From: a virus
Lineage: Duplodnaviria; Heunggongvirae; Uroviricota; Caudoviricetes
IMG/VR virus record: IMGVR_UViG_3300028887_000082
DNA: 64,000 bases
Strand: one strand, 5' to 3'
Shown: positions 1 to 45,605 of the stretch, one piece after another
Layout: every line of letters starts with the position of its first letter
How positions within the stretch are numbered: position 1 is the stretch's first letter
Translations under genes and position numbers: made by a program
Notes under the pieces: generated by a model
Told to the model about the DNA's origin: nothing
Databases searched by the model: none
Seen by the model: the letters and a program-made list of their open reading frames with translations, nothing else

Positions 1-12
1 AAGTAATATTCT

Positions 13-94
13 GGGAGTGTCGCATAGTGGCAATTGCAAGGGTCTGTAACACCCTCGCCTTCGGGCTTCGGAGGTTCGAGTCCTCCCGCTCCCA
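13..94 (+). tRNA. tRNA-Tyr (anticodon GTA), type II
   Basis: Acceptor GGGAGTG/CGCTCCC (one G-U); anticodon stem AGGGT/ACCCT with loop CTGTAAC; long variable arm; T-arm GGAGG-TTCGAGT-CCTCC; discriminator A. Confidence 0.75.
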
Positions 95-110
95 CAAAAA
101 CTTTAAGGTT

Positions 111-443
111 ATGAAAAAGACAGTTAAGTTTTTCAAACAGGATGACAAATGGTATGCAGACATTCCAAACCACACACTGGATGAAAATGAGATGGTGATG
201 GGTTCTGATATTATGTTGGAGATGTTTGCGAACGGTGCGAAGGAACTCACATTAACATTGTCTGATGATGATATGTCTGATGCATTCATAACATTGAGAA
301 GAAAGGAACATGATGAGGATGGTGCCTGGTACACAGTGTTCGGGACAGACTTTGAGGATGTTTGGATATGTAATGTGACACATGATGTCTTCGGTGAACA
401 CCCTGAATGTATCTACATCAGTAAGATAACTCAACATAAATAA
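111..443 (+). CDS. hypothetical protein (110 aa) embedded in tRNA array
   Basis: ORF 27..443 trimmed to the first ATG (MKKTVKFF...), because its upstream part overlaps tRNA-Tyr. Confidence 0.45.
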   Translation: MKKTVKFFKQDDKWYADIPNHTLDENEMVMGSDIMLEMFANGAKELTLTLSDDDMSDAFITLRRKEHDEDGAWYTVFGTDFEDVWICNVTHDVFGEHPECIYISKITQHK

Positions 444-530
444 GGGGATGTGCTGAAACTGGCAGCCAGGCCAGACTTAGGATCTGGTGTCCGGAAGGAC
501 GTATGGGTTCGAGTCCCTTCATCCCTACCA
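444..530 (+). tRNA. tRNA-Leu (anticodon TAG), type II, CCA encoded
   Basis: Acceptor GGGGATG/CATCCCT; anticodon stem CCAGA/TCTGG with loop CTTAGGA; long variable arm; T-arm TGGGTTCGAGTCCC; ends ACCA. Confidence 0.75.
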
Positions 531-607
531 CAGTCTTTCGGGACTTTAAAGAGTTGTAGAAATACAATCCATCGAGGTCAGTCCAGAACCAGTTAATCTG
601 GACATTT

Positions 608-680
608 GCGGCAGTGGCGGAATGGTAGACGCGCCACTTTGAGGGGGTGGTCCGGGCAACCGGGTATGGGTTCGAGTCCC
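608..680 (+). tRNA. tRNA-Leu (anticodon GAG; Ser/TGA reading not excluded), type II
   Basis: Acceptor GCGGCAG/CTGCCGC perfect 7 bp; Leu-type D-loop AATGGTAGA; anticodon stem CCACT/GGTGG with loop TTGAGGG; long variable arm TCCGGGCAACCGGGT; T-arm ATGGG-TTCGAGT-CCCAT. Confidence 0.65.
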
Positions 681-791
681 ATCTGCCGCACAATAAAAAG
701 GGTGGGCCAATCGGAATAAGGCAGGGTAAGTCTCCGGTTCTTCTTTGATGAGGGTGCACCAGTAATCAAAGTTTCTTAAATTACCCAACCC

Positions 792-865
792 GGGCAAGTA
801 ACTCAGTTGGTTAGAGTACCACTCTGATACAGTGGTGGTCGTAGGTTCGAGTCCTACCTTGCCCA
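792..865 (+). tRNA. tRNA-Ile (anticodon GAT)
   Basis: Acceptor GGGCAAG/CTTGCCC perfect; D-arm ACTCAGTTGGTTAGAGT; anticodon stem CCACT/AGTGG with loop CTGATAC; T-arm GTAGG-TTCGAGT-CCTAC. Confidence 0.85.
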
Positions 866-873
866 CAACAAAT

Positions 874-948
874 GCCCCTATCATACTAATAGGTTTAGGT
901 GGCCACCCTCTCAAGGTGGAGATACGGGTTCGAATCCCGTTGGGGGTA
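874..948 (+). tRNA. tRNA-like, possibly tRNA-Glu (anticodon CTC); weak D-arm, possible pseudogene
   Basis: Acceptor GCCCCTA/TGGGGGT pairs only with two G-U pairs; anticodon stem CCACC/GGTGG with loop CTCTCAA; canonical T-arm ACGGG-TTCGAAT-CCCGT; no convincing D-stem. Confidence 0.45.
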
Positions 949-967
949 CAAAAAATATTCAAAAATA

Positions 968-999
968 TTTGGTAGTTTCAAATTTTTTTGTTATCTTTG
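968..999 (+). promoter_or_regulatory. Bacteroidota-type promoter (-33 TTTGG, 20 nt, -7 TATCTTTG)
   Basis: AATATTTGGTAGT ... TATCTTTG; same architecture recurs before many genes in this window. Confidence 0.5.
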
Positions 1000-1169
1000 T
1001 ACTGTAAGTTCATTGAAATATTGATGCACATATAGGAACAACAAGATGGGGTACCTATAAGTCTCACATAAGGATTCTAGATTGAGGGGGTGTGAGAGAA
1101 GGGTACAAATAATGTTAAAGAGGATTCCCGACCCTTAATAGGAGGAGAAAAGCGCTCTCTCCGATCCTC

Positions 1170-1204
1170 TGACAACAGTGACTACGGAAATCTGTTGTGT
1201 TCTT
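1170..1204 (+). ncRNA. hairpin with conserved loop TGACTACGGAAAT (stem ACAACAG/CTGTTGT)
   Basis: 7-bp stem around a 13-nt loop, 4 nt upstream of tRNA-Leu(CAA); the same loop recurs at 1426-1448 with a different stem. Confidence 0.45.
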
Positions 1205-1207
1205 TAT

Positions 1208-1280
1208 GCCCAGGTGGGGGAATGGTAGACCCAGCTGTCTCAAAAGCAGCCGACCATCCGGTCATGTGAGTTCGAGTCTC
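1208..1280 (+). tRNA. tRNA-Leu (anticodon CAA), type II
   Basis: Acceptor GCCCAGG/CCTGGGC perfect; D-loop AATGGTAGA; anticodon stem GCTGT/GCAGC with loop CTCAAAA; long variable arm; T-arm GTGAG-TTCGAGT-CTCAC. Confidence 0.85.
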
Positions 1281-1425
1281 ACCCTGGGCACTTTGATGAA
1301 AATCCTAGGTGGGTGGTATCTATAGCAGACTCCTTTAAAATGGGGAAGGAGGAAAGATACCGAATACTGGACAGGTGGTTTCGTCTAGCATCCTGGTGAG
1401 GGGGAATGTCCTCACAAGACCACTT

Positions 1426-1462
1426 GAGAATGGTGACTACGGAATTCCATTTGTTTTCATTT
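1426..1462 (+). ncRNA. hairpin with conserved loop TGACTACGGAATT (stem AATGG/CCATT) plus T-rich tail
   Basis: Second copy of the TGACTACGGAA loop with a compensatory stem; followed by TTGTTTTCATTTTTTAT, so terminator-like. Confidence 0.4.
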
Positions 1463-1837
1463 TTTATGGTGGGGTTATCAAACTTAACCACCCGCATCCT
1501 TGAAGAGAATGTGTTGCCGAGCCGTGTCAAGTTTATCTTGTATCCGGAGGAGTGAAACTTCCAAGTTGACAGGTTATTGCACTCGCCTGTCAATTATTAC
1601 TGAACCCACCAGTAAGACTGTTAAGCAGTATATCAGTATGGTACATGGGAGTTGTGCATGAGCTGGCTGAAGAGTAGTTTCCGGATATGGTGTTGAAACC
1701 CGGGGAAAATGAAAAGTAAGTCAATAGCAATAGGGAACCGGTGGAGTTACTGTGACTTTGTAATTTTGTCCATTACAGAACCGGGGAAATAATGGAACAC
1801 CAATGTGGCTAAAATGGTAGGGATTCACAAAAATCAG

Positions 1838-1898
1838 TGAAGGTGGCCACACACCTGGACAATCACTGATTACGAAAATTATTTTTTATAAATATATA
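1838..1898 (+). terminator. stem-loop (ATCAGTGA...TCACTGAT) followed by T-rich run, upstream of tRNA-Glu
   Basis: 8-bp stem with a structured 21-nt loop, then TACGAAAATTATTTTTTAT. Confidence 0.4.
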
Positions 1899-1904
1899 AC
1901 AGTT

Positions 1905-1976
1905 GGCGCCCTCGTCTATCGGTTAGGACACGAGATTTTCATTCTCGGAAGAGGGGTTCGATTCCCCTGGGCGCTA
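1905..1976 (+). tRNA. tRNA-Glu (anticodon TTC)
   Basis: Acceptor GGCGCCC/GGGCGCT (G-U at 1:72); D-stem GTCT/GGAC; anticodon stem CGAGA/TCTCG with loop TTTTCAT; T-arm AGGGG-TTCGATT-CCCCT. Confidence 0.8.
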
Positions 1977-2037
1977 CTAATCAACCGGAAGGTTGTTTAC
2001 TATCCAGTCAATAATTCATGAATAAACCTGGGTAGAG

Positions 2038-2111
2038 GTCTGATAGCTCAGATGGTGAGAGTACCACACTGATACTGTGGAGGTCACAAGTTCAAGTCTT
2101 GTTCAGACTAC
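2038..2111 (+). tRNA. tRNA-Ile (anticodon GAT), second copy with imperfect acceptor stem (possible pseudogene)
   Basis: D-arm TAGCTCAGATGGTGAGAGT; anticodon stem CCACA/TGTGG with loop CTGATAC; T-arm ACAAG-TTCAAGT-CTTGT; acceptor GTCCTGA/TCAGACT has two mismatches. Confidence 0.5.
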
Positions 2112-2225
2112 GAAACATATCGCGGGGGAGTGAAACGGATAAGAACATCCCACAAGTTTGTTCAAAGATCATTACAGGCTCATAACCTGTAGATACTGGC
2201 TTCGACTGCCAGACCCGCAACAAAG

Positions 2226-2379
2226 ACCTTTATGAAGCAAGTGGAATTCGGTATTTCAACCTATGCAAGTTATCAGAGTCAGTGTACAATGAATCTGAAG
2301 AACAGTATAAAAGTCAATACTGATAAGTCTTCTGTGGAAATTCAAGCCCAGTTGTCCTGGTTCGAGCCCAGGTAAAGGT
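2226..2379 (+). ncRNA. elongated tRNA-like gene (154 nt) with ~75-nt internal insertion
   Basis: Perfect 7-bp acceptor ACCTTTA...TAAAGGT flanks a canonical T-arm CCTGG-TTCGAGC-CCAGG; TG follows the 5' acceptor strand as in neighbouring tRNAs; internal part not foldable by eye. Confidence 0.4.
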
Positions 2380-2555
2380 CCATATACAACAAAAAACAAC
2401 AAACATGGCAACAGTTAAAAACACATCATTCTCAAGAAGAGAAGTCAAGCATAAGAAACGCCCTGGAATCATTTCCAAGTGTAAGTCTTCAAAGAACAAG
2501 ACATCAAAACACTATGTGAAACCATACAGAGGTCAGGGCAGACCATAAAAACCTT

Positions 2556-2637
2556 CGGGGTGTAACCGGTAGTTGGTTTCCGACCAGTTTTGGGAACTGG
2601 GCCGCAAGGCGCGCAGGTTCGAGTCCTGTTACCCCGA
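2556..2637 (+). tRNA. tRNA-like, probable tRNA-Pro (anticodon TGG) with unusually long variable arm
   Basis: Acceptor CGGGGTG/TACCCCG; anticodon stem CCAGT/ACTGG with loop TTTGGGA (G37); 12-nt variable hairpin GCCGCAAGGCGC; T-arm GCAGG-TTCGAGT-CCTGT; D-stem only 3 bp. Confidence 0.5.
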
Positions 2638-2640
2638 CAA

Positions 2641-2822
2641 CACCTGGTGGACAAATGGTAAAGTCGCCCTATTGGGTAGGGAGGTGTGTAATAGAAGTTT
2701 TCCGGCAGTGAGGAGTAATGGAGTCGCGATCCACCGAAGGCACGGGAACGAGAATAAGCACAGGCCTGGATGTATTCGCGATGCTGAAGGGTGAATGGGG
2801 GTTCAATTCCCCTTCGAGGTGA
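2641..2822 (+). ncRNA. elongated tRNA-like gene (182 nt) with ~110-nt insertion after the anticodon region
   Basis: 5' part CACCTGG-TG-GAC-AATGGTAAA-GTC with stem-loop CCCT-ATTGGGT-AGGG (TGG anticodon-like); 3' part GGGGG-TTCAATT-CCCCT then CGAGGTG, which pairs 6/7 with the 5' acceptor; insert contains two copies of TCGCGAT. Confidence 0.4.
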
Positions 2823-3129
2823 CAAAGATTGTTGTGGTGTTGCAGAACTTTAAAAGGAACAACACAGGTGTAGAGGGAAACTTTAATGGGTAATTTTTTT
2901 TACCAGCTAACCTTCAGAGACCTCACCAAGGATGATGCTTCATCATGGAGGGCACTCCAAGATGACAAAAAGATAGTTACAGTGAGAGTCTTATTGAGAA
3001 CTGTTCGACCCAGGAGGAGTGATGTTTTAGAGCATGTTTGACTGTACGGGGATAAACGGTGGCGACCGGTGAGTTTTTCTGGGCACTTCTCAGAACAAAA
3101 ACAAAGAAAATTAACAAAACAGTCTTTAA

Positions 3130-3204
3130 GGGTGTTTAGCGCAGCTGGTTCAGAGCATCTCGTTTACACCGAGAAGGTCGGGGGTTCGAATCCCTCATCA
3201 CCCA
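3130..3204 (+). tRNA. tRNA-Val (anticodon TAC)
   Basis: Acceptor GGGTGTT/ATCACCC (one mismatch); D-arm TAGCGCAGCTGGTTCAGAGC; anticodon stem TCTCG/CGAGA with loop TTTACAC; T-arm GGGGG-TTCGAAT-CCCTC. Confidence 0.75.
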
Positions 3205-3342
3205 CAAAGAGATACTTGAAGAAGCTACGGGTGTAAGATACTAGTAAAGATTACACATAGGGGCCTACCATATTGTAGTTTATGTGTTCTAAAACATCAA
3301 GTAACAACATAGAGGACTTCGAATTAATCTATGGCTCTTAAT

Positions 3343-3414
3343 GCCGATGTAGCTCAGTGGCAGAGCAGGGGTTTTGTAAACCTCAGGTCGAGATCTCGGT
3401 ATTCTCCATCGGCT
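3343..3414 (+). tRNA. tRNA-Thr (anticodon TGT) with non-canonical T-loop
   Basis: Acceptor GCCGATG/CATCGGC perfect; D-arm TAGCTCAGTGGCAGAGC; anticodon stem GGGGT/ACCTC with loop TTTGTAA; T-arm GAGAT-CTCGGTA-TTCTC (4 bp, unusual loop). Confidence 0.65.
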
Positions 3415-3472
3415 CAAAATTATTGAACTTGAACTTTCATAAATACTTTATAAGGATTATAAAAGTTCAACT

Positions 3473-4066
3473 ATGACAAACTGGGAAGATAGAAAAGATA
3501 CCCTGGTAGATTTGATACAGGTTCAGAAATTACCATATGAACAGATTGGTAGAATGTTCAATTGTTCAGGTAATAACATCAAGAAAGTTGCAAAAAAACT
3601 TGGTATTGAATTAGTCCAGAAAAGAAAGATAAATGAAAGTGAAACTTTCAATAAAGGAAAAGGTAATAAGGGTATCTGTTTAAACTGTGGATGTGAATAT
3701 AACATTTACAGGTCTTCAAAAGGAAAGTTCTGCTCAAACAAATGTCAGGGAGAGTATGAATATAAAGAGTTCATTGAAAAATGGAAAAAGGGTGAAGAAT
3801 CTGGATTGACAGGAGAATATGGAATTTCTCGTCACATAAGGAGATACCTTTTTAATAAGTACAAATGTAGTTGTCAAATTTGTGGATGGAGTGAAGTAAA
3901 TCCATTTACTGGTAATGTTCCTTTGGAAATTCATCATATAGATGGCAATTACGTAAATAATAAAGAGGAAAATTTACAACTCCTTTGTCCAAATCATCAC
4001 TCACTGACTGAAACCTTTAAGAACCATAATAAAAATGGTAGAAAAGGTAGAAGGAAGTACAATTGA
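3473..4066 (+). CDS. HNH homing-type endonuclease (free-standing, inside tRNA array)
   Basis: C-terminal HNH motif ...EIHHIDGNYVNNKEENLQLLCPNHH; Cys-rich Zn-binding stretches CLNCGCEY...CSNKCQ and CQICGW; N-terminal HTH-like segment. Confidence 0.85.
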   Translation: MTNWEDRKDTLVDLIQVQKLPYEQIGRMFNCSGNNIKKVAKKLGIELVQKRKINESETFNKGKGNKGICLNCGCEYNIYRSSKGKFCSNKCQGEYEYKEFIEKWKKGEESGLTGEYGISRHIRRYLFNKYKCSCQICGWSEVNPFTGNVPLEIHHIDGNYVNNKEENLQLLCPNHHSLTETFKNHNKNGRKGRRKYN

Positions 4067-4072
4067 TAATTT

Positions 4073-4227
4073 GCCCCAGTGGCTCAATGGTAGAGCAACG
4101 CACTTGTATAGATGGCGAAATTCCATTTTAAAAACTATGACTACATCAAAAGGCTCATAGGAGTGAGGGTTCGATTCCCTTATGTAGTCCAATGCGTAGG
4201 TTGCTGGTTCGATTCCGGCCTGGGGCT
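4073..4227 (+). tRNA. interrupted tRNA gene: 5' half + ~90-nt insertion in anticodon loop + 3' half; insertion contains a nested T-arm/acceptor minihelix
   Basis: Outer acceptor GCCCCAG...CTGGGGC perfect 7 bp; D-arm TGGCTCAATGGTAGAGC; anticodon stem ACGCA (4098-4102) pairs with TGCGT (4193-4197); T-arm GCTGG-TTCGATT-CCGGC; insert 4103-4192 begins CTTGTAT (TGT-like); nested ACTACAT...GAGGG-TTCGATT-CCCTT-ATGTAGT-CCA at 4140-4191. Confidence 0.6.
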
Positions 4228-4285
4228 CAAGAAAAAGGATTTTGGCCTGTTAGTTAAAATCCATATAAAATAAAAAGTCAAATTT

Positions 4286-4906
4286 ATGTCAAAATTAATG
4301 AAACCAGAAGAGAGGGATCAGCAGATCAAGGATTTGATGATTACCATTAGAAGGAACACACAGGGTTCCAAATGTATTGAGATCTTTGAAAATCTTTTGA
4401 ATGAGGTTGAGGACAAAGAGTTTGTTGATACTGTTATAGCAGACACTCACAAATTCATCTCTGAGTTCTCAAGACTATGTAAGGATGTGGACAATATGAA
4501 GAATCTGGATTATATCTCCAGAATCCTCACACATGAGTTCATACTTCCCCACAAGTATTTCCGTAAGTCACAGAATATGGCGAAGGTATACTTGCTGATG
4601 TATGACAGACTTGTGAAGATATATTCACATCCTGTATATGATGTTGAGAAAGGTATCATCCTTTCCAATGTCAACTTCCTGGGTACAATTCACCACAAGG
4701 AAGACCTCACTGCAAATGATGTGATTGCAGTGTTCAAGTATTTCGGTGACCTTTCAGGACTTTCCGTTGACCAGGTAAAGGAAAAGAAGGAAGAAGCCAG
4801 GATGGTCATCTTACTCTACAATTATCTGCCTGCCATAGTGAAGGCACTTATTCAGACCAAGAGGAGAAGCTTGAATCTTGACAAGAACTCCAAGAAGTTT
4901 GAATAA
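4286..4906 (+). CDS. hypothetical protein (206 aa)
   Basis: Long + strand ORF between the tRNA block and tRNA-Ala. Confidence 0.6.
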   Translation: MSKLMKPEERDQQIKDLMITIRRNTQGSKCIEIFENLLNEVEDKEFVDTVIADTHKFISEFSRLCKDVDNMKNLDYISRILTHEFILPHKYFRKSQNMAKVYLLMYDRLVKIYSHPVYDVEKGIILSNVNFLGTIHHKEDLTANDVIAVFKYFGDLSGLSVDQVKEKKEEARMVILLYNYLPAIVKALIQTKRRSLNLDKNSKKFE

Positions 4907-4934
4907 ATAACAGAACTAACAGGCTGGAATCTTT

Positions 4935-5001
4935 GGGGGATTAGCTCAGCTGACTAGAGCACCTGATTTGCACTCAGGAGGTCATGGGTTTGAATCCCAT
5001 A
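4935..5001 (+). tRNA. tRNA-Ala (anticodon TGC), CCA encoded
   Basis: Acceptor GGGGGAT/ATCCTCC (G-U at 4:69); D-arm TAGCTCAGCTGACTAGAGC; anticodon stem CCTGA/TCAGG with loop TTTGCAC; T-arm ATGGG-TTTGAAT-CCCAT; ends ACCA. Confidence 0.8.
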
Positions 5002-5043
5002 TCCTCCACCAAAAAAGGACAATTATTTGCTGGGATACTGTGA

Positions 5044-6132
5044 GTGTCCCTTTTTTATTCAATGAAAAGAATATTTATATTCATTGTATTTTTATTCCTT
5101 GGTATGACATCACTGCAATCGCAGAATGTCGTATCATCTACTGTTGAGTTTTTATTCAACACAGATGAGTTTGTACAGAATGAGAAATATGACAATTTCA
5201 TAAACACAATTGTACCTTATATCAACAGCAACAAGGATAATATTGAGAGTATCCTGTTGGTGGGATCTGCATCCCCAGAAGGAAACAAGGAATGGAATGA
5301 CTACCTTGCTGTCACCAGGGCCGAAAAGGTACACTCATATTTTATGGACAGTATTCCAAGACAGAAGGTCAATGTCATCAATGACTATGACCTATTCCTG
5401 GAAAAGACAGGTTATGATGAGAAGAACTGGAAAAGGTTGAGGGCAACTTATATTGAAATCCAACTCAAAAAAGCACCTGAAACCATAACCCTGTTTGACA
5501 CCATATATATAAAGGAGATGGATACAATCTACCAGTGCTGTGGCACTGATACTGTATATATCAAACAGGAACCGGAAAGGATACCTCTTCTTGCAGTAAA
5601 GACAAATCTCCTTTCTGATGTTCTCATCACCCCCAGTATTCAAGCTGAACTCTACACACATCTCTGGGGACTCTCACTTGAATTTGACTACACATTCCCC
5701 TGGTATCACAATGATGATGTATATTGGTATTACCAGATCCTCAATGGTACTGTTGGAATAAGGAAGTACTTGAACAATGAGTACTATGGTCATTACTTTG
5801 GAATATATGGAAACACTTTCACATATGACATCTGTTTTGATGCAGATAATGGATACCAGGGTGAGGGTAATGGAATCAGTATAGGTTATGGATATGTGTT
5901 CAGGAGTAAGAAACATCCCAAACTGAAGTTTGAACCTTATGTCAGGTTGGGTTATCTGTATTCAAGATTTGACACATATCATGCCTCTAATCCCTGGGAT
6001 GGAAAGTATTACTACAACTGGCATAAGAAGGCCAGTGAATTTACTCCCAGGAGACTTGAACTTAATTATTTCGGACCTACTGCAATAGGTTTCAATATAA
6101 CATACGACTTGATATGGTTAAGAAAGTATTAG
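5044..6132 (+). CDS. secreted outer-membrane beta-barrel-like protein (DUF3575-like, OmpA-like segment)
   Basis: Signal peptide MKRIFIFIVFLFLGMTSLQSQ; segment AVKTNLLSDVLITPSIQAE resembles the DUF3575 core found beside Bacteroidales fimbrillin genes; GSASPEGNKEWNDYLAVTRAEKV is OmpA-C-like; aromatic C-terminus. Confidence 0.5.
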   Translation: MSLFYSMKRIFIFIVFLFLGMTSLQSQNVVSSTVEFLFNTDEFVQNEKYDNFINTIVPYINSNKDNIESILLVGSASPEGNKEWNDYLAVTRAEKVHSYFMDSIPRQKVNVINDYDLFLEKTGYDEKNWKRLRATYIEIQLKKAPETITLFDTIYIKEMDTIYQCCGTDTVYIKQEPERIPLLAVKTNLLSDVLITPSIQAELYTHLWGLSLEFDYTFPWYHNDDVYWYYQILNGTVGIRKYLNNEYYGHYFGIYGNTFTYDICFDADNGYQGEGNGISIGYGYVFRSKKHPKLKFEPYVRLGYLYSRFDTYHASNPWDGKYYYNWHKKASEFTPRRLELNYFGPTAIGFNITYDLIWLRKY

Positions 6133-10978: not shown

Positions 10979-12109
10979 ATGCAGATTATAGACAATGTAC
11001 AACTTGACTTCAGTGATGTTCTCATTAAACCCAGGAGGTCAAGTATTGATTCGAGAAGTAAGGTAGATATTACCAGGGAGTACAAATTCAAATGGTGTCC
11101 ATATAAAATCACAGGTACTGGTATTATGCAGGCCAATATGGGAACCATAGGTAACTTTAAAGTGAGTGAGAAACTGTTGGAGAATGGTATGTTTGCTTGC
11201 CTTCACAAATATCATGATACTGACAAACTGATTGATTTCTACAAGAAACTCATCCACAAAGGTGACGGAAGTATGAGAAGATGTCTCCTTGCAATAGGAT
11301 TGAGAGATAATGGTATTGAGAAACTGAGGGAAATAAACAAGGCAACCGGTGAACAGATTGGTGTGAAGTTTGATGTTCCCAATGGATATATTCCCCAGGT
11401 AAAGGAAAGAGTCATTGAACTCAGGAAGGAGTTTCCAGATATGTTCATTATGGTTGGTAATGTGGTTACTGGTGATATCACAGAAGACCTGATTCTGTCA
11501 GGTGCAGACTGTGTTGCAGTAGGTATCGGTAATGGTGCCCAGTGTCTCACAAGAAGACAGACAGGTTGCGGAAGACCACAGTTCTCCGCTGTCGTAGAGT
11601 GTGCAGATGCAGCTCACCAGGTCGGAGGTATGGTTTGTTCTGATGGTGGTATCACCTGTCCTGGAGATTTGGGTAAGGCATTTGGTGCCGGTGCGGATTT
11701 CATTATGATAGGAAGTCTGTTTGCAGGAACTGATGAGGCAGATGGTGAGACTGTTGAGAAGTATGTCTTCAATGGTGAGTATGACAAAATATTATATAAT
11801 CCTGGTTATGTGTTTGATCCCCATCTTGATAAGAAACAGTTCAAACAGTTCTATGGTATGAGTTCAACTCTGGCCCAGGAAAAGTTTGGTAATGGTAAAC
11901 CCAGTTACCGTGCGAGTGAAGGTCGTGTAACTCTGATGCCTTATACAGGATCTGTTTGTGATGTGATTGAGGAACTCCTTGGAGGATTGAGGTCAACAAT
12001 GACTTATATAGGTGCATGGAAACTCAAGAATATTCCTAAACAGTGTGTGTTCTATAAGGTTCACAACCAACTGAACCAGACATATGAGAGATTTACAGTA
12101 GGTAAATAA
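10979..12109 (+). CDS. guaC: GMP reductase (IMPDH/GMPR family)
   Basis: N-terminus ...LDFSDVLIKPRRSSIDSRSKVDITREYKFKW... parallels E. coli GuaC ([31 protein letters not shown]); catalytic-loop motif GIGNGAQCLTRRQTGCGRPQFSAV; ~375 aa. Confidence 0.8.
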   Translation: MQIIDNVQLDFSDVLIKPRRSSIDSRSKVDITREYKFKWCPYKITGTGIMQANMGTIGNFKVSEKLLENGMFACLHKYHDTDKLIDFYKKLIHKGDGSMRRCLLAIGLRDNGIEKLREINKATGEQIGVKFDVPNGYIPQVKERVIELRKEFPDMFIMVGNVVTGDITEDLILSGADCVAVGIGNGAQCLTRRQTGCGRPQFSAVVECADAAHQVGGMVCSDGGITCPGDLGKAFGAGADFIMIGSLFAGTDEADGETVEKYVFNGEYDKILYNPGYVFDPHLDKKQFKQFYGMSSTLAQEKFGNGKPSYRASEGRVTLMPYTGSVCDVIEELLGGLRSTMTYIGAWKLKNIPKQCVFYKVHNQLNQTYERFTVGK

Positions 12110-44285: not shown

Positions 44286-45605
44286 ATGAAACTAACATTA
44301 GAGAATATTACAATCAAAGACCACAAGATTTATGACCCGGAAGGAAACTTCAGGGGAGAAATCTTGTATGAGTACATTCGTGGTTCTCATCTGTATTCAA
44401 CCAATGTGGAGACATCAGATGAAGACCAGGGAGGTATCTACATTATGCCTAACAGCACCATATTGGGTCTTGGTCTTGACTATCAGAATGAGATAAAGGA
44501 TAAGAGTAATGACAAGTGCATCTGGGAGTTGGGAAGATTCCTGGAACTTGCCCTGTCTTCAAACCCAACTGTCCTGGAGGCACTCTTTGTTCCTGGTGAT
44601 AAGGTCATCTATGAACATCCTGTCATCAAGGAGATCCGTTCACACCGTGATGAGTTTATCACCAAGAAGTGTTTTGCACCATTTGGAGGTTATGCTTCAA
44701 GTCAGATAAAGAAGGCTCAGGGTCAGAACAAGAAGATCCACTGGGATATTGCCCAGATGGTAAGGAAGACTCCTATGGACTTCTGTTATACCTTGAAGAA
44801 CCAGGGTAGTCAGCCTATGCAGGACTGGTTGGATGAAAGAGGACTTGATCAGAGAAACTGTGGTCTGGTCAATATTCCCAATATGCCTGATATGTTCGGT
44901 GTGTATTATGACTGGGGTCAGCACATCAGACTTGCCGGTATCACCAAGGAGTATTTCACCAATAAGGAGAATTACTACAAGGATAAGTTTATCAAGACTA
45001 TGGACATGTATCTTGGAAATGAATATATCCTCCATGAGGATGGAAACCTTGAGGATGAACTTGAATATATCTGGGATCATCACTCTGAACCTCATGGTGG
45101 TTACTGTGGAATCATCTCACCCAATGAGGATTCCAACACAGTAAGGTTCTCTTCTGTTGTCAAGGGTGAGAAACCCATCTGTTATATGTCTTACAATGCC
45201 AATGCATATATATCACATTGTAAGGAGTATAGGGAGTATGAGGACTGGAAGGAACACAGAAATCCAGCAAGGTATGAATCCAATATGGAGGGAGAGAAGT
45301 CAGGCAATGCAGATATGAAATATGACTGCAAGAATATGATGCACTGCTTCAGGTTGATGGCAATGGCAAAGGAGATTGCAGAAGGAAAGGGTGTGATCCT
45401 GGATCGCGCTGGTATTGACAGGGAGTTTCTCCTGGATGTTAGAAACCGTAAGTATGGTTATTCTGAACTCCAGAAGAAGATGCTTGACCTGAAGGATGAG
45501 ATGGATGCTGCCATTGAGAAATCTACCATCAAGGATGAGATTGATCCCCAAATGGTCAATGACCTCCTCCTGGAAGCAAGAAAACATTTTAATTCAAAAG
45601 ATTAA
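44286..45605 (+). CDS. Pol-beta superfamily nucleotidyltransferase (439 aa)
   Basis: N-terminal hG[GS]x9-13Dh[DE]h motif: IRGSHLYSTNVETSDEDQGGIYI; substrate specificity not determinable from sequence. Confidence 0.5.
   Translation: MKLTLENITIKDHKIYDPEGNFRGEILYEYIRGSHLYSTNVETSDEDQGGIYIMPNSTILGLGLDYQNEIKDKSNDKCIWELGRFLELALSSNPTVLEALFVPGDKVIYEHPVIKEIRSHRDEFITKKCFAPFGGYASSQIKKAQGQNKKIHWDIAQMVRKTPMDFCYTLKNQGSQPMQDWLDERGLDQRNCGLVNIPNMPDMFGVYYDWGQHIRLAGITKEYFTNKENYYKDKFIKTMDMYLGNEYILHEDGNLEDELEYIWDHHSEPHGGYCGIISPNEDSNTVRFSSVVKGEKPICYMSYNANAYISHCKEYREYEDWKEHRNPARYESNMEGEKSGNADMKYDCKNMMHCFRLMAMAKEIAEGKGVILDRAGIDREFLLDVRNRKYGYSELQKKMLDLKDEMDAAIEKSTIKDEIDPQMVNDLLLEARKHFNSKD

What the first reader, a model, noticed from the sequence alone, without database searches (positions are those of the whole stretch)
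2641..2822. Second elongated tRNA-like gene (182 nt) with ~110-nt internal insertion
A tRNA-like 5' half (acceptor CACCTGG, TG, D-arm GAC-AATGGTAAA-GTC, TGG anticodon-like stem-loop) and a tRNA-like 3' half (GGGGG-TTCAATT-CCCCT T-arm, then CGAGGTG pairing 6/7 with the 5' acceptor) enclose an extra ~110 nt. That segment contains a TCGCGAT direct repeat. It starts 4 nt after the Pro-like tRNA. Three elongated tRNA-like genes in 2 kb suggest a shared mechanism: small introns, inserted mini-elements or deliberately permuted tRNA-like ncRNAs.
Basis: seen in the sequence. Interest (0 to 1): 0.55.

Follow-up and report, generated by a model that had tools for sequence, protein, structure and literature searches.

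The report
Ornate non-decoding tRNA-like phage RNA
Bases 2641-2822 encode a real, conserved RNA of giant uncultivated phages: a tRNA-shaped molecule with no fixed anticodon that carries a 112-base, two-armed folded insert whose two loops bear the same self-complementary sequence, a family not found in Rfam 15 or in my literature searches, and of unknown function.

Summary
Window 2641-2822 (+) is a tRNA-shaped gene with about 112 extra bases, 3 nt after tRNA-Pro. ARAGORN and Rfam do not call it. I found 13 distinct homologs (64-96% identity) in tRNA arrays of related huge-phage contigs. None was found in 185,579 reference bacterial and archaeal genomes, or in the GenBank phage collection.

A tested secondary structure is 98.8% paired, with 20 pairs showing compensatory changes (shifted-register controls give 6 or fewer). 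The structure comprises:
- a 7-bp acceptor stem with a conserved bulged G;
- a tRNA-Leu-like D arm;
- an anticodon-position hairpin;
- two extra arms in the variable region;
- a T arm, A73, and an ACAA trailer (the CAA after the discriminator is shared by several tRNAs of the array).

The "anticodon" loop varies in length (5-8 nt) and sequence, with 0 of 10 columns invariant. So this is not a decoder, and not an intron-split tRNA. Both extra arms end in 7-nt loops reading N-UCGCGA, invariant in all 13. These are the only two TCGCGA sites in the 64-kb window.

Best reading: a tRNA-derived structured ncRNA, matured like a tRNA, whose insert is clamped or dimerised by a UCGCGA·UCGCGA kissing contact. 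Its function is unknown.

The parts
2641..2647 (+). Acceptor stem, 5' strand (CACCUGG)
   Evidence: Pairs with 2814-2821. 5 of the 7 pairs show compensatory changes across 13 homologs, for example CA../..UG to GG../..CC, and CC/GG to GG/CC.
2648..2666 (+). U8-G9, D arm (3-bp stem GAC/GUC plus the A13·A22 mismatch; loop AAUGGUA with A14, A15, G18, G19, A20a, A21) and position 26
   Evidence: The D loop is invariant in 13 homologs. This half is most similar to the tRNA-Leu genes of the same genome.
2667..2681 (+). Hairpin at the anticodon-arm position (CCCUA-UUGGG-UAGGG). The stem is conserved and the loop is unconstrained.
   Evidence: The stem pairs are 100% kept, with U-A changing to C-G. The loop is 5-8 nt, with 0 of 10 columns invariant. 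ARAGORN reads a different 'anticodon' in almost every homolog.
2684..2761 (+). Long extra arm V1. P-a is GUGU 2684-2687 with GCAC 2758-2761. An A-rich internal loop follows (..UAAUA.. against GAAUAA). P-b is 2697-2706 with 2740-2749 (9 bp, bulged U). A purine-rich internal loop follows (AGUGA 2707-2711 against GAAG 2736-2739). Then GG/CC 2712-2713 with 2734-2735, a 5-nt bulge at 2714-2718, and hairpin HP1.
   Evidence: P-b has 5 of 9 pairs with compensatory changes. The P-a pair 52-123 varies among U·G, C-G and U-A. The internal-loop sequences are invariant.
2719..2733 (+). HP1: 4-bp stem (UGGA/UCCA) and 7-nt loop G-UCGCGA (loop 2723-2729; palindrome 2724-2729)
   Evidence: 3 of the 4 stem pairs change on both sides (UGGA/UCCA to CAGU/ACUG). 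UCGCGA is invariant in 13 of 13 homologs, and the first loop base varies between G and U.
2764..2792 (+). Short extra arm V2: P-c (GCCU 2764-2767 with GGGU 2789-2792), a GGA/GAA internal loop, and hairpin HP2 (stem 2771-2774 with 2782-2785; 7-nt loop U-UCGCGA 2775-2781; palindrome 2776-2781)
   Evidence: P-c has 2 of 4 and HP2 2 of 4 pairs with compensatory changes (GGUA/UGCC to UCCA/UGGA). UCGCGA is invariant in 13 of 13 homologs, and the first loop base varies between U and A.
2793..2796 (+). Linker GAAU, ending in the U that occupies position 48 (partner of A15)
   Evidence: UGAAUG is invariant in all 13 homologs.
2797..2813 (+). T arm (GGGGG-UUCAAUU-CCCCU)
   Evidence: 5 bp, 2 pairs with compensatory changes. 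U54, U55, C56 and A58 are invariant.
2814..2822 (+). Acceptor stem 3' strand (UC-[G2816 bulged]-AGGUG) and discriminator A2822. It is followed by CAA, and CCA is not encoded.
   Evidence: The bulged-G register fits better than a G·G mismatch. A73 plus CAA is invariant, and several authentic tRNAs of this array share the same CAA trailer.

Best explanation
This is a gene for a stable, non-decoding, tRNA-derived RNA of about 182 nt (185 nt if CCA is added).

Shown:
- It folds as a class-II, tRNA-Leu-like cloverleaf.
- Its variable region has grown into a 112-nt, two-armed structured domain.
- The hairpin at the anticodon position is only a structural strut, because its loop is free to vary.

Inferred:
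- It is transcribed with the tRNA array.
- It is cut out by the tRNA-processing machinery: RNase P at C2641, and 3' trimming plus CCA addition after A2822. The tRNA body would thus serve as a processing and stability scaffold, and possibly as a handle for tRNA-binding proteins.
- The two arms each present the palindrome UCGCGA in an anticodon-like 7-nt loop. These loops pair with each other in a 6-bp kissing contact. This could happen within one molecule, clamping the long bent arm to the short one, or between molecules.
- The conserved insert (junction, A-rich loop, purine-rich loop) is the working part. It most likely acts in trans as a binding platform for a protein or another RNA in the infected cell.
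For: Real and selected:
- 13 distinct homologs at 64-96% identity, all on the same strand inside tRNA arrays of related huge-phage contigs (345-434 kb where the length is known). In 9 of the 12 homologs where the upstream gene is visible, the element lies 2-8 nt after a tRNA called by ARAGORN: tRNA-Pro in 8 and tRNA-Met in L020. In L016/L022 the gap after tRNA-Pro is about 165 nt. In L029 ARAGORN calls nothing directly upstream. For L034 and L035 ARAGORN was not run, and L017 has no called tRNA.
- Structure: 98.8% of cells paired, and 20 of 52 pairs with compensatory change, against 8.3 in shuffles and 6 or fewer in slid registers.
- Strand: several pairs are G·U in all or most homologs (129-159 and 164-180 are G·U in 11 of the 11 sequences counted). 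They would be C·A on the other strand.
- Non-coding: four homologs have stops in all six frames.

tRNA frame:
- ARAGORN calls a tRNA in 11 of 13 homologs once the insert is deleted.
- The covariance model's next-best hits are the phages' own tRNA-Leu genes, at 31-41 bits.
- The 5' half is most like the co-resident tRNA-Leu.
- U8, A14, A15, G18, G19, A20a, U48, U54, U55, C56, A58 and A73 are all invariant. Together they are the E. coli leucine identity set, which does not include the anticodon or the V arm (PMC9976931).

Not a decoder: the loop at the anticodon position has 0 of 10 columns invariant.

Processing:
- The trailer A73-CAA matches the trailers of authentic tRNAs in the array.
- No terminator-like site lies between tRNA-Pro and the element. 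One lies after the last tRNA of the block, at 5032-5050.

Kissing:
- Both loops are 7 nt with an identical, invariant, self-complementary 6-mer (12 of 12 positions), while their stems covary.
- These are the only two TCGCGA sites in 64 kb of a genome depleted in CpG (observed/expected 0.29), and the only two in three relatives' loci.
- UCGCGA loops are used experimentally as kissing loops in designed RNAs (PMC12873911).

Not a known family: no Rfam 15 match.
Against: - There is no expression, end-mapping or probing data. Transcription, RNase P cleavage and CCA addition are inferred.
- The single-sequence fold is not more stable than shuffles (z = +0.63).
- The loop-loop contact cannot be supported by covariation, because both loops never vary. 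Invariance is equally compatible with each loop binding the same protein or an external RNA.
- All 13 sequences come from one phage lineage, so shuffle statistics are inflated by relatedness. The slid-register control is the fairer one, and it still separates clearly.
- A bulged G in the acceptor stem could impair RNase P, LeuRS or EF-Tu recognition.
- No function is demonstrated.
Confidence: 0.6

Rival explanations
1. It is a functional tRNA gene (tRNA-Pro UGG in this window) interrupted by a small intron or an inserted mobile mini-element. The insert is removed to give a normal decoder.
For: The frame is a good cloverleaf once the insert is removed. In the window the loop can be read as AUUGGGU with UGG. 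The same phages do carry 79-86-nt inserts in the anticodon loops of other tRNAs, and an HNH endonuclease ORF lies nearby at 3473-4066.
Against: - The 'anticodon' differs in almost every homolog (AGA, AUG, GAG, GCA, AUA, UGG, GUG, and loops that yield only 2-nt 'anticodons'). The loop is 5-8 nt and often lacks U33.
- The insert is in the variable region, not the anticodon loop.
- All 13 homologs have it, and no uninterrupted version was found.
- Its helices covary and its loops are invariant, so it is selected as part of the mature RNA.
- No Rfam family matches the insert at E up to 10, which includes the intron models, and 112 nt is too short for a group I core.
- It has no paralog in the window.
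Confidence: 0.04
2. It is an aminoacylatable (leucine-accepting) tRNA mimic that cannot decode. It could work as a decoy or sponge for tRNA-directed host defences or toxins that act on the acceptor end or elbow. It could instead titrate LeuRS or the CCA-adding enzyme, or donate Leu to a non-ribosomal acceptor.
For: The complete bacterial leucine identity set is present and invariant: A73, U8:A14, A15-U48, G18G19, A20a and the T-loop contacts. LeuRS ignores the anticodon and the V arm. The D arm is tRNA-Leu-like. These phages invest heavily in tRNAs and RNA repair: an RlaP-family nucleotidyltransferase at 44286-45602, and an Rnl1-type ligase in L031.
Against: - Most of those positions are universal tRNA-core bases, so the set is only weakly specific.
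- The bulged G in the acceptor stem may block charging.
- The acceptor pairs 1-72 to 4-69 vary freely.
- It does not explain why a 112-nt insert with invariant palindromic loops is conserved.
- No charging data exist.
Confidence: 0.15
3. It is an RNA that self-assembles. This would be a small counterpart of the phage-borne ROOL and GOLLD assemblies.
For: A purely intramolecular HP1·HP2 contact only requires the loops to be complementary. That the shared 6-mer is also a palindrome (a 1 in 64 chance) and is identical in both loops is what symmetric self-pairing requires. ROOL, GOLLD and OLE are phage or prophage RNAs, often near tRNA islands, that form homo-oligomers partly through palindromic kissing loops (PMC12286853). 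Designed RNAs with UCGCGA loops multimerise (PMC12873911).
Against: - If the two loops arose by duplication, identity plus a requirement to pair would also force a palindrome.
- The long arm has a purine-rich internal loop and a 5-nt bulge that could bend it back to reach the short arm, so an intramolecular clamp looks feasible. This is my own estimate and was not modelled.
- There is no covariation and no biophysical data.
Confidence: 0.2
4. It is a reduced tmRNA or another trans-translation RNA.
For: It has tRNA-like ends around an internal domain. There is a weak 15-nt match to the T arm of the tmRNA model. Related phages carry tmRNA genes in their tRNA arrays.
Against: - ARAGORN finds no tmRNA here.
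- There is no G3·U70 pair.
- It has a full D stem and an anticodon-position arm, which tmRNA lacks.
- It has no conserved reading frame or resume codon.
- L020 carries both a permuted tmRNA (2620-2966) and this element (135-322), so the element is not the phage's tmRNA.
Confidence: 0.01
5. It is a decaying tRNA pseudogene or a chance fusion of tRNA fragments, for example a recombination scar or an att site.
For: tRNA arrays in these phages are rearranged often, and the window has other irregular tRNA-like sequences (2121-2222 and 3343-3414).
Against: Thirteen homologs, diverged down to 64% identity, keep every helix through compensatory changes. Junctions and loops are invariant. That is purifying selection on an RNA structure.
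Confidence: 0.01

Closest known systems
Phage T4 RNAC and RNAD (species 1 and 2 stable RNAs of the T4 tRNA region)
   Same: They are small stable non-tRNA RNAs encoded inside a phage tRNA cluster with unknown biological role (PMC3014915). From my own knowledge, they are co-transcribed with tRNAs and matured by the tRNA-processing enzymes thanks to tRNA-like termini.
   Different: There is no sequence similarity: blastn of 2400-3000 against 50,697 phage records found nothing. The T4 RNAs are shorter and, to my knowledge, do not keep a full cloverleaf with D and T arms, an expanded variable region or palindromic loops.
Class II tRNA-Leu
   Same: It shares the cloverleaf order, a 3-bp D stem with an AAUGGUA-type loop, A15-U48, A73, and an extra arm emerging from the variable region. 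The covariance model's best non-self hits are tRNA-Leu genes.
   Different: The variable region is 112 nt with two arms, against roughly 13-21 nt with one arm. There is no conserved anticodon loop. The acceptor stem has a bulged G. Neither ARAGORN nor the Rfam tRNA model recognises it.
ROOL and GOLLD (large ornate phage/prophage RNAs near tRNA islands)
   Same: They are phage-borne, sit in or beside tRNA arrays, have unknown function, and use conserved (partly palindromic) kissing loops. ROOL was first found in rumen metagenomes (PMC12286853). Sample names suggest that these homologs also come from rumen samples, but that is my inference.
   Different: There are no Rfam hits to ROOL or GOLLD. 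This RNA is 3-4 times smaller and is built on a tRNA body. Oligomerisation here is only a hypothesis.
tmRNA
   Same: It is a tRNA-like acceptor/T-arm module flanking a non-tRNA domain, and it is a non-canonical tRNA relative encoded by phages.
   Different: See the membership rows. This element has no G3·U70, no tag ORF and no tmRNA pseudoknot set, it has full D and anticodon-position arms, and it co-occurs with a true tmRNA in L020.
Engineered 'tRNA scaffold' for recombinant RNA expression (own knowledge: Ponchon and Dardel 2007)
   Same: A functional RNA domain is embedded in a tRNA body so that cellular tRNA enzymes process and stabilise it. This is the biogenesis logic I infer here.
   Different: The scaffold is artificial, and its insert replaces the anticodon stem-loop. 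Here the insert is in the variable region and is natural.
Bacterial Y RNA-like YrlA
   Same: It is a non-decoding RNA with a tRNA-mimicking module, and some are phage-encoded (own knowledge).
   Different: In YrlA the 5' and 3' ends form the Ro-binding helix and the tRNA-like part is internal. Here the ends form the acceptor stem. There is no Rfam match.

Membership tests
Canonical decoding tRNA | Cloverleaf with acceptor, D, anticodon and T arms, and the tertiary-core bases (U8, A14, G18G19, U54-U55-C56, A58) | tested here: met
   The helices covary. The core bases are invariant. ARAGORN of 13 homologs after the insert is deleted.
Canonical decoding tRNA | 7-nt anticodon loop with U33 and an anticodon conserved among orthologs | tested here: not met
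   The loop is 5-8 nt with 0 of 10 columns invariant, and the apparent 'anticodon' differs in nearly every homolog.
Canonical decoding tRNA | Length of about 70-95 nt and recognition by the tRNA models | tested here: not met
   It is 182 nt. ARAGORN makes no call. The Rfam tRNA model gives no hit even at E up to 10.
tRNA gene with a self-splicing (group I) intron | Insert located in the anticodon loop of a tRNA that has a conserved anticodon | tested here: not met
   The insert lies between the anticodon-position stem and the T stem (2682-2796). ARAGORN's intron mode does not call it, although it does call 4073-4228.
tRNA gene with a self-splicing (group I) intron | Group I catalytic core (P3-P9) detectable, with intron-less alleles among relatives | tested here: not met
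   No Rfam family matches the insert at E up to 10, which includes the intron models. All 13 homologs carry the insert. At 112 nt it is below known core sizes (own knowledge).
tmRNA | Alanine identity pair G3·U70 in the acceptor stem | tested here: not met
   Pair 3-70 is C-G in 11 homologs and G-C in 2, never G·U.
tmRNA | Internal tag reading frame with a resume codon and stop; pseudoknots; no D stem or anticodon arm | tested here: not met
   No frame is conserved. A D stem and an anticodon-position arm are present. ARAGORN's tmRNA search is negative. A true tmRNA co-occurs in L020.
Phage tRNA-cluster stable RNAs (T4 RNAC/RNAD type) | Encoded within a phage tRNA gene cluster, on the same strand as the tRNAs | tested here: met
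   All 13 homologs lie inside tRNA arrays on the tRNA strand. Where ARAGORN called the upstream tRNA, most lie 2-8 nt after it.
Phage tRNA-cluster stable RNAs (T4 RNAC/RNAD type) | Accumulates as a stable processed RNA, matured by RNase P and 3' tRNA enzymes | not testable with these tools
   No transcript data are available. This is inferred from the acceptor/T-arm geometry and the tRNA-like CAA trailer.
Phage tRNA-cluster stable RNAs (T4 RNAC/RNAD type) | Sequence homology to T4 rnaC or rnaD | tested here: not met
   blastn (word size 11) of 2400-3000 against 50,697 GenBank phage records gave no match.
ROOL / GOLLD | Match to the Rfam covariance models | tested here: not met
   No hit at the gathering score or at E up to 5-10.
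ROOL / GOLLD | Homo-oligomeric assembly through intermolecular kissing loops | not testable with these tools
Leucine-accepting tRNA (bacterial LeuRS substrate) | A73; U8:A14; A15-U48; G18G19; A20a; G18:U55, G19-C56 and U54:A58 (PMC9976931) | tested here: met
   All of these bases are present and invariant in the 13 homologs. Most are universal core bases, so this test is permissive.
Leucine-accepting tRNA (bacterial LeuRS substrate) | Actual aminoacylation by LeuRS | not testable with these tools
   This needs a charging assay. The bulged G2816 may be an antideterminant.

The most novel reading that the evidence does not exclude
The RNA is a self-assembling tRNA mimic. Its two invariant palindromic UCGCGA loops would make symmetric contacts between molecules, so that tRNA-shaped units (possibly CCA-tailed and leucine-accepting) join into dimers, rings or chains. 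That would be a miniature, tRNA-bodied counterpart of the ROOL and GOLLD RNA assemblies that phages also encode beside their tRNA genes. It would display multiple tRNA elbows and acceptor ends to capture a host tRNA-binding factor.
Probability: 0.15. Interest if true: 0.85.

Novelty: new variant of a known kind. Interest (0 to 1): 0.62.

Why it matters
Phage tRNA arrays are usually read as codon-supply or anti-defence cargo. The few non-tRNA RNAs found in them (T4 RNAC/RNAD, ROOL, GOLLD) have resisted functional explanation for years to decades.

This element is a compact (182 nt) example that is easy to synthesise. Its architecture is clear and covariation-supported: an intact tRNA body that has given up decoding, and a conserved insert with two identical palindromic loops. 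It turns vague questions into direct experiments:
- Is the tRNA body only a processing and stability scaffold, or is it charged?
- Do the loops clamp the molecule or join molecules?
- What does the conserved domain bind?

It also warns annotators that the 'long tRNA-like' genes of huge phages are heterogeneous. Some are tRNAs with anticodon-loop inserts, and others, like this one, are a distinct ncRNA family missing from Rfam. A calibrated covariance model (R1) now exists to annotate it.

Tried and rejected
1. ARAGORN and Rfam, at the gathering score and at E up to 10, gave no family.
2. A single-sequence fold was not informative (z = +0.63).
3. blastn against GenBank phages gave no match.
4. 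IMG/VR holds only two contigs with the element, by four DNA patterns and two protein-guided scans.
5. Two scans of the one-genome-per-species bacterial and archaeal collection gave 0 hits, and then 4 hits in GC-rich MAGs. The covariance model rejects all 4, so they are chance matches.
6. The more distant syntenic loci L007, L010, L013, L027 and L036 lack the element within the fetched 15-20 kb. L029 showed that it can sit about 9.5 kb away, so absence from those genomes is not established.
7. The RNAalifold register for P-a (UGUGU/GCACA) and a G·G mismatch in the acceptor stem were replaced by a shifted P-a and a bulged G after L029, L034 and L035 were added.
8. I considered a K-turn or sarcin-ricin reading of the AGUGA/GAAG loop. 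I rejected it by eye: two extra bases lie on the non-bulged strand, and the would-be bulged G is not conserved.
9. A hammerhead or other small ribozyme gave no Rfam hit, and the CUGANGA core is absent.
10. An SRP Alu-like UGUAAU resemblance was judged coincidental.
11. The opposite-strand ORF 2469-2825 (118 aa) was rejected, because no frame is open in all homologs.
12. The sigma-70 promoter scan found no more sites than chance, and it is not valid for Bacteroidota-type promoters.
13. The conserved 300 nt downstream (2826-3129) is a separate module, absent in L002, L018, L022, L023 and L029.
Full report
**What is in the sequence.** Window 2641-2822 (+ strand) lies in a dense tRNA array (12 ARAGORN tRNAs, 11 of them in 1-5011). 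It begins 3 nt after the discriminator of a tRNA-Pro(UGG). ARAGORN does not call it as a tRNA or tmRNA. Rfam 15 gives nothing at the gathering score or at E up to 10, apart from a 15-nt match to a generic T arm. On its own the sequence does not fold better than shuffles (z = +0.63). The case therefore rests on comparative evidence.

**Relatives.**
- A neighbouring 206-aa protein (4286-4903) led to two IMG/VR contigs of 412 kb and 345 kb. Through the protein database it led to further metagenomic contigs of up to 434 kb.
- One exact-pattern scan of metagenome contigs added nine loci.
- This gives 13 distinct copies of the element at 64-96% pairwise identity.
- All lie inside tRNA arrays on the tRNA strand. 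Eight of the 12 copies where the upstream gene is visible sit 2-8 nt after tRNA-Pro(UGG). L020 follows a tRNA-Met directly. L016/L022 lie about 165 nt after tRNA-Pro. In L029, ARAGORN calls nothing directly upstream.
- In L029 the element sits about 9.5 kb from the marker protein, so it moves within arrays.
- No copy was found among 50,697 GenBank phage records. None was found in one genome from each of 185,579 bacterial and archaeal species. The two pattern scans there gave 0 hits and then 4 hits, and the covariance model rejects all 4 as chance.
- The neighbouring genes include DUF3575 and Mfa-like fimbrial proteins. This points to Bacteroidota hosts. Sample names suggest rumen material. Both points are inferences.

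**Structure.** I built the secondary structure by eye and with RNAalifold, and refined it as more divergent sequences arrived. I then tested it by counting pairs.
- 52 pairs are 98.8% paired over 571 cells.
- 20 pairs show changes on both sides. Column shuffles give a mean of 8.3, with 0 of 500 reaching the observed value. Sliding every 3' partner by 1-3 columns gives 6 or fewer.
- The slid control keeps relatedness among the sequences, so it is the fairer test, and it separates cleanly.
- Several pairs are G·U in all or most sequences. That fixes the + strand as the RNA strand.
- Four homologs have stop codons in all six frames.

**The parts, in window coordinates.**
- Acceptor stem: 2641-2647 with 2814-2821, 7 bp with a conserved bulged G (G2816).
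- U8 and G9.
- D arm: 2650-2665.
- Hairpin at the anticodon-arm position: 2667-2681.
- Long arm V1: 2684-2761. It contains P-a, an invariant A-rich internal loop, the 9-bp P-b, an invariant purine-rich internal loop, a 5-nt bulge, and hairpin HP1 at 2719-2733.
- Short arm V2: 2764-2792. It contains P-c, a 3x3 purine loop, and hairpin HP2 at 2771-2785.
- Linker GAAU.
- T arm: 2797-2813.
- Discriminator A2822, followed by CAA.

**It is tRNA-shaped but not a decoder.**
- Deleting alignment columns 48-159 (the V1 and V2 arms with most of their linkers) in silico makes ARAGORN call a tRNA in 11 of 13 homologs. The 'anticodon' it reads differs in almost every one: AGA, AUG, GAG, GCA, AUA, UGG, GUG, and loops that yield only 2 nt.
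- That loop is 5-8 nt long and often lacks U33. It is the least constrained part of the molecule, with 0 of 10 columns invariant. By comparison, 43% of paired columns and 56% of other unpaired columns are invariant.
- This is the opposite of what a decoding tRNA or an intron-split tRNA gene would show. The UGG seen in the window is a coincidence.
- The tertiary-core bases are all invariant: U8, A14, A15, G18, G19, A20a, A21, U48, U54, U55, C56 and A58. So are A73 and the CAA trailer, which several genuine tRNAs of the array share.
- The covariance model R1's best non-self hits are the phages' own class II tRNA-Leu genes, at 31-41 bits. The 5' half is most similar to the co-resident tRNA-Leu.
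- The simplest history is a tRNA-Leu-like gene whose variable arm expanded and whose anticodon was released from selection.

**The insert.**
- Its helices covary: P-b in 5 of 9 pairs, HP1 in 3 of 4, P-c in 2 of 4, HP2 in 2 of 4. Its junctions and internal loops are invariant. This is the usual signature of a folded functional domain.
- Both hairpins end in 7-nt loops of the form N-UCGCGA. The first base varies, and the six-base palindrome is invariant in all 13 copies of both loops, 12 of 12 positions.
- TCGCGA occurs nowhere else in the 64-kb window, against about 8 expected. The genome's CpG observed/expected ratio is 0.29. In three relatives' 17-21-kb loci, the only two sites are also these two.
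- Two identical self-complementary loops on covarying stems argue for RNA-RNA pairing of the loops.
- UCGCGA is used as a kissing-loop sequence in designed RNA nanostars (PMC12873911).
- Whether the contact is within one molecule or between molecules cannot be decided here.
  - Within one molecule, the long arm has two potential hinges that could fold HP1 back onto HP2. This is my own estimate and was not modelled.
  - Between molecules, palindromic loops are exactly what symmetric homo-oligomers use. This has been shown for OLE and GOLLD, and ROOL also has a conserved symmetric kissing loop. ROOL and GOLLD are phage or prophage RNAs, often near tRNA islands (PMC12286853).

**Most likely mechanism.**
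- Shown: this is a conserved, structured, non-coding, non-decoding tRNA-like RNA gene in phage tRNA arrays.
- Inferred, moderately confident: it is co-transcribed with the array. No terminator-like site lies between tRNA-Pro and the element, and one lies at 5032-5050. It is excised by RNase P and the 3' tRNA-maturation enzymes and receives CCA. The tRNA body would thus act as a natural processing and stability scaffold.
- Inferred, less confident: the two loops kiss, and the conserved insert is a trans-acting binding module.
- Speculative: the RNA is leucylated. It carries the full bacterial leucine identity set, which excludes the anticodon and the V arm (PMC9976931). Most of those bases are universal, however, and the bulged G may interfere.

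**Alternatives.**
- An intron or mini-element in a real tRNA is contradicted by five points: the unconserved 'anticodon', the position of the insert, its presence in all homologs, its own covariation, and the lack of any paralog or intron-model hit.
- The same phages do have intron-like inserts, which makes a useful contrast. With intron detection on, ARAGORN calls window 4073-4228 (83-nt insert), L002 5791-5946 and 6793-6945, and L005 2224-2392. All are inserts of 79-86 nt in anticodon loops, and they are present or absent between relatives.
- tmRNA is excluded: there is no G3·U70, no tag frame, and full D and anticodon-position arms are present. L020 has both a permuted tmRNA and this element.
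- A pseudogene or chance fusion is excluded by the covariation.

**Comparison with known RNAs.**
- The nearest known kind is the pair of small stable RNAs of the phage T4 tRNA region, RNAC and RNAD. Their roles are still unknown (PMC3014915). There is no sequence similarity, and this architecture differs: a full cloverleaf, a two-armed variable-region domain and palindromic loops.
- It resembles ROOL and GOLLD in habitat and in using conserved kissing loops, but it is not a member of either family.
- A second, diverged type exists. L007 14213-14397 scores 32.5 bits with R1 and has a 91%-identical copy in a 380-kb IMG/VR contig. It has a similar size and layout, a perfect 7-bp acceptor stem with G3·U70, a different single long insert and no UCGCGA loops. 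tRNA bodies with hypertrophied variable regions may therefore be a wider theme in these phages.

**Verdict.** It is a new family within the known kind 'tRNA-derived or tRNA-cluster stable RNAs'. The structure is well supported and the function is unknown. Interest is moderate to high, because the RNA is small, clearly structured and directly testable, and it may connect to the unexplained ornate RNAs that phages keep beside their tRNAs.

Noticed in passing
window 4073-4228 (HNH ORF just upstream at 3473-4066): This is a tRNA with an 83-nt insert in the anticodon loop (ARAGORN intron mode; Rfam tRNA 23 bits). The insert itself contains a mini tRNA-like unit: a 7-bp stem ACUACAU/AUGUAGU, the T arm GAGGG-UUCGAUU-CCCUU, and then CCA. 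Relatives carry 79-86-nt anticodon-loop inserts in other tRNAs (L002 5791-5946 and 6793-6945, L005 2224-2392), and these are present or absent between genomes. This looks like a mobile mini-intron class, too short for group I.
   Followed up: partly
L007 14213-14397; L044 about 1335-1515: This is a second type of tRNA-like RNA of about 182 nt with an insert of about 100 nt in the variable region. It has a perfect 7-bp acceptor stem with G3·U70, a different insert, and no UCGCGA loops. The two copies are 91% identical, with one compensatory acceptor-stem change (G-C to A-U). They come from phage contigs of 434 kb and 380 kb.
   Followed up: partly
window 2556-2638: The tRNA-Pro(UGG) just upstream is 83 nt, with an extra GC-rich variable arm (GCCGCAAGGCGC) and an altered D arm. 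Relatives have an ordinary tRNA-Pro of 74-77 nt. The Rfam tRNA model does not reach threshold; only tRNA-Sec scores 28.7 bits.
   Followed up: no
window 2121-2222: This tRNA-like sequence has a clean CAU anticodon arm (ACAGG-CUCAUAA-CCUGU), a T arm and part of an acceptor stem. It has about 28 extra nt between the D region and the anticodon arm. Neither ARAGORN nor Rfam calls it.
   Followed up: no
window 1292-1904, and 950-1207: These are long non-coding gaps inside the tRNA array. They are conserved at 67-77% identity in L001 and L002 and could hold further ncRNAs. The motif TGAYTACGRAA occurs three times (1179, 1434, 1867), only in this block, against 0.13 expected. Two of the three copies lie 20-40 nt upstream of a tRNA start, which suggests a promoter or processing signal.
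   Followed up: partly
window 2405-2548: This is a 47-aa, very basic ORF (MATVKNTSFSRREVKHKKRPGIISKCKSSKNKTSKHYVKPYRGQGRP) directly upstream of tRNA-Pro. A 47-aa gene is called at the corresponding position in L005 and L034, and the DNA is conserved in L001 and L002. It has no Pfam hit. It could be a small RNA-binding or ribosomal-type protein.
   Followed up: partly
window 2826-3129: A 300-nt spacer lies downstream of the element. It is conserved in six relatives and absent in five, so it is a separate module. It begins with a conserved hairpin (GUGUUG...CAACAC, about 2836-2865).
   Followed up: partly
L010 10405-10476; L013 3441-3781; L020 2620-2966: Related phages carry an amber-suppressor-type tRNA (anticodon CUA, which ARAGORN labels Pyl) and permuted tmRNA genes with tags such as GNNVYSVNFGAPAQQTQKTMVAFA in their tRNA arrays. 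Stop-codon recoding in part of this clade is possible.
   Followed up: no
window, whole 64 kb: CpG is strongly depleted (observed/expected 0.29). Nearly all genes are on the + strand, with steadily rising cumulative GC skew. The window also encodes an RlaP-family RNA-repair nucleotidyltransferase (44286-45602), a GMP reductase/IMPDH-like protein (10979-12109), an M42 peptidase, a PIF1-type helicase and a D12 adenine methyltransferase.
   Followed up: no
window 3343-3414: Rfam calls this tRNA-Thr(UGU)-like gene at 50 bits, but ARAGORN misses it. Its T arm is irregular, GAGA-UCUCGGUAU-UCUC.
   Followed up: no
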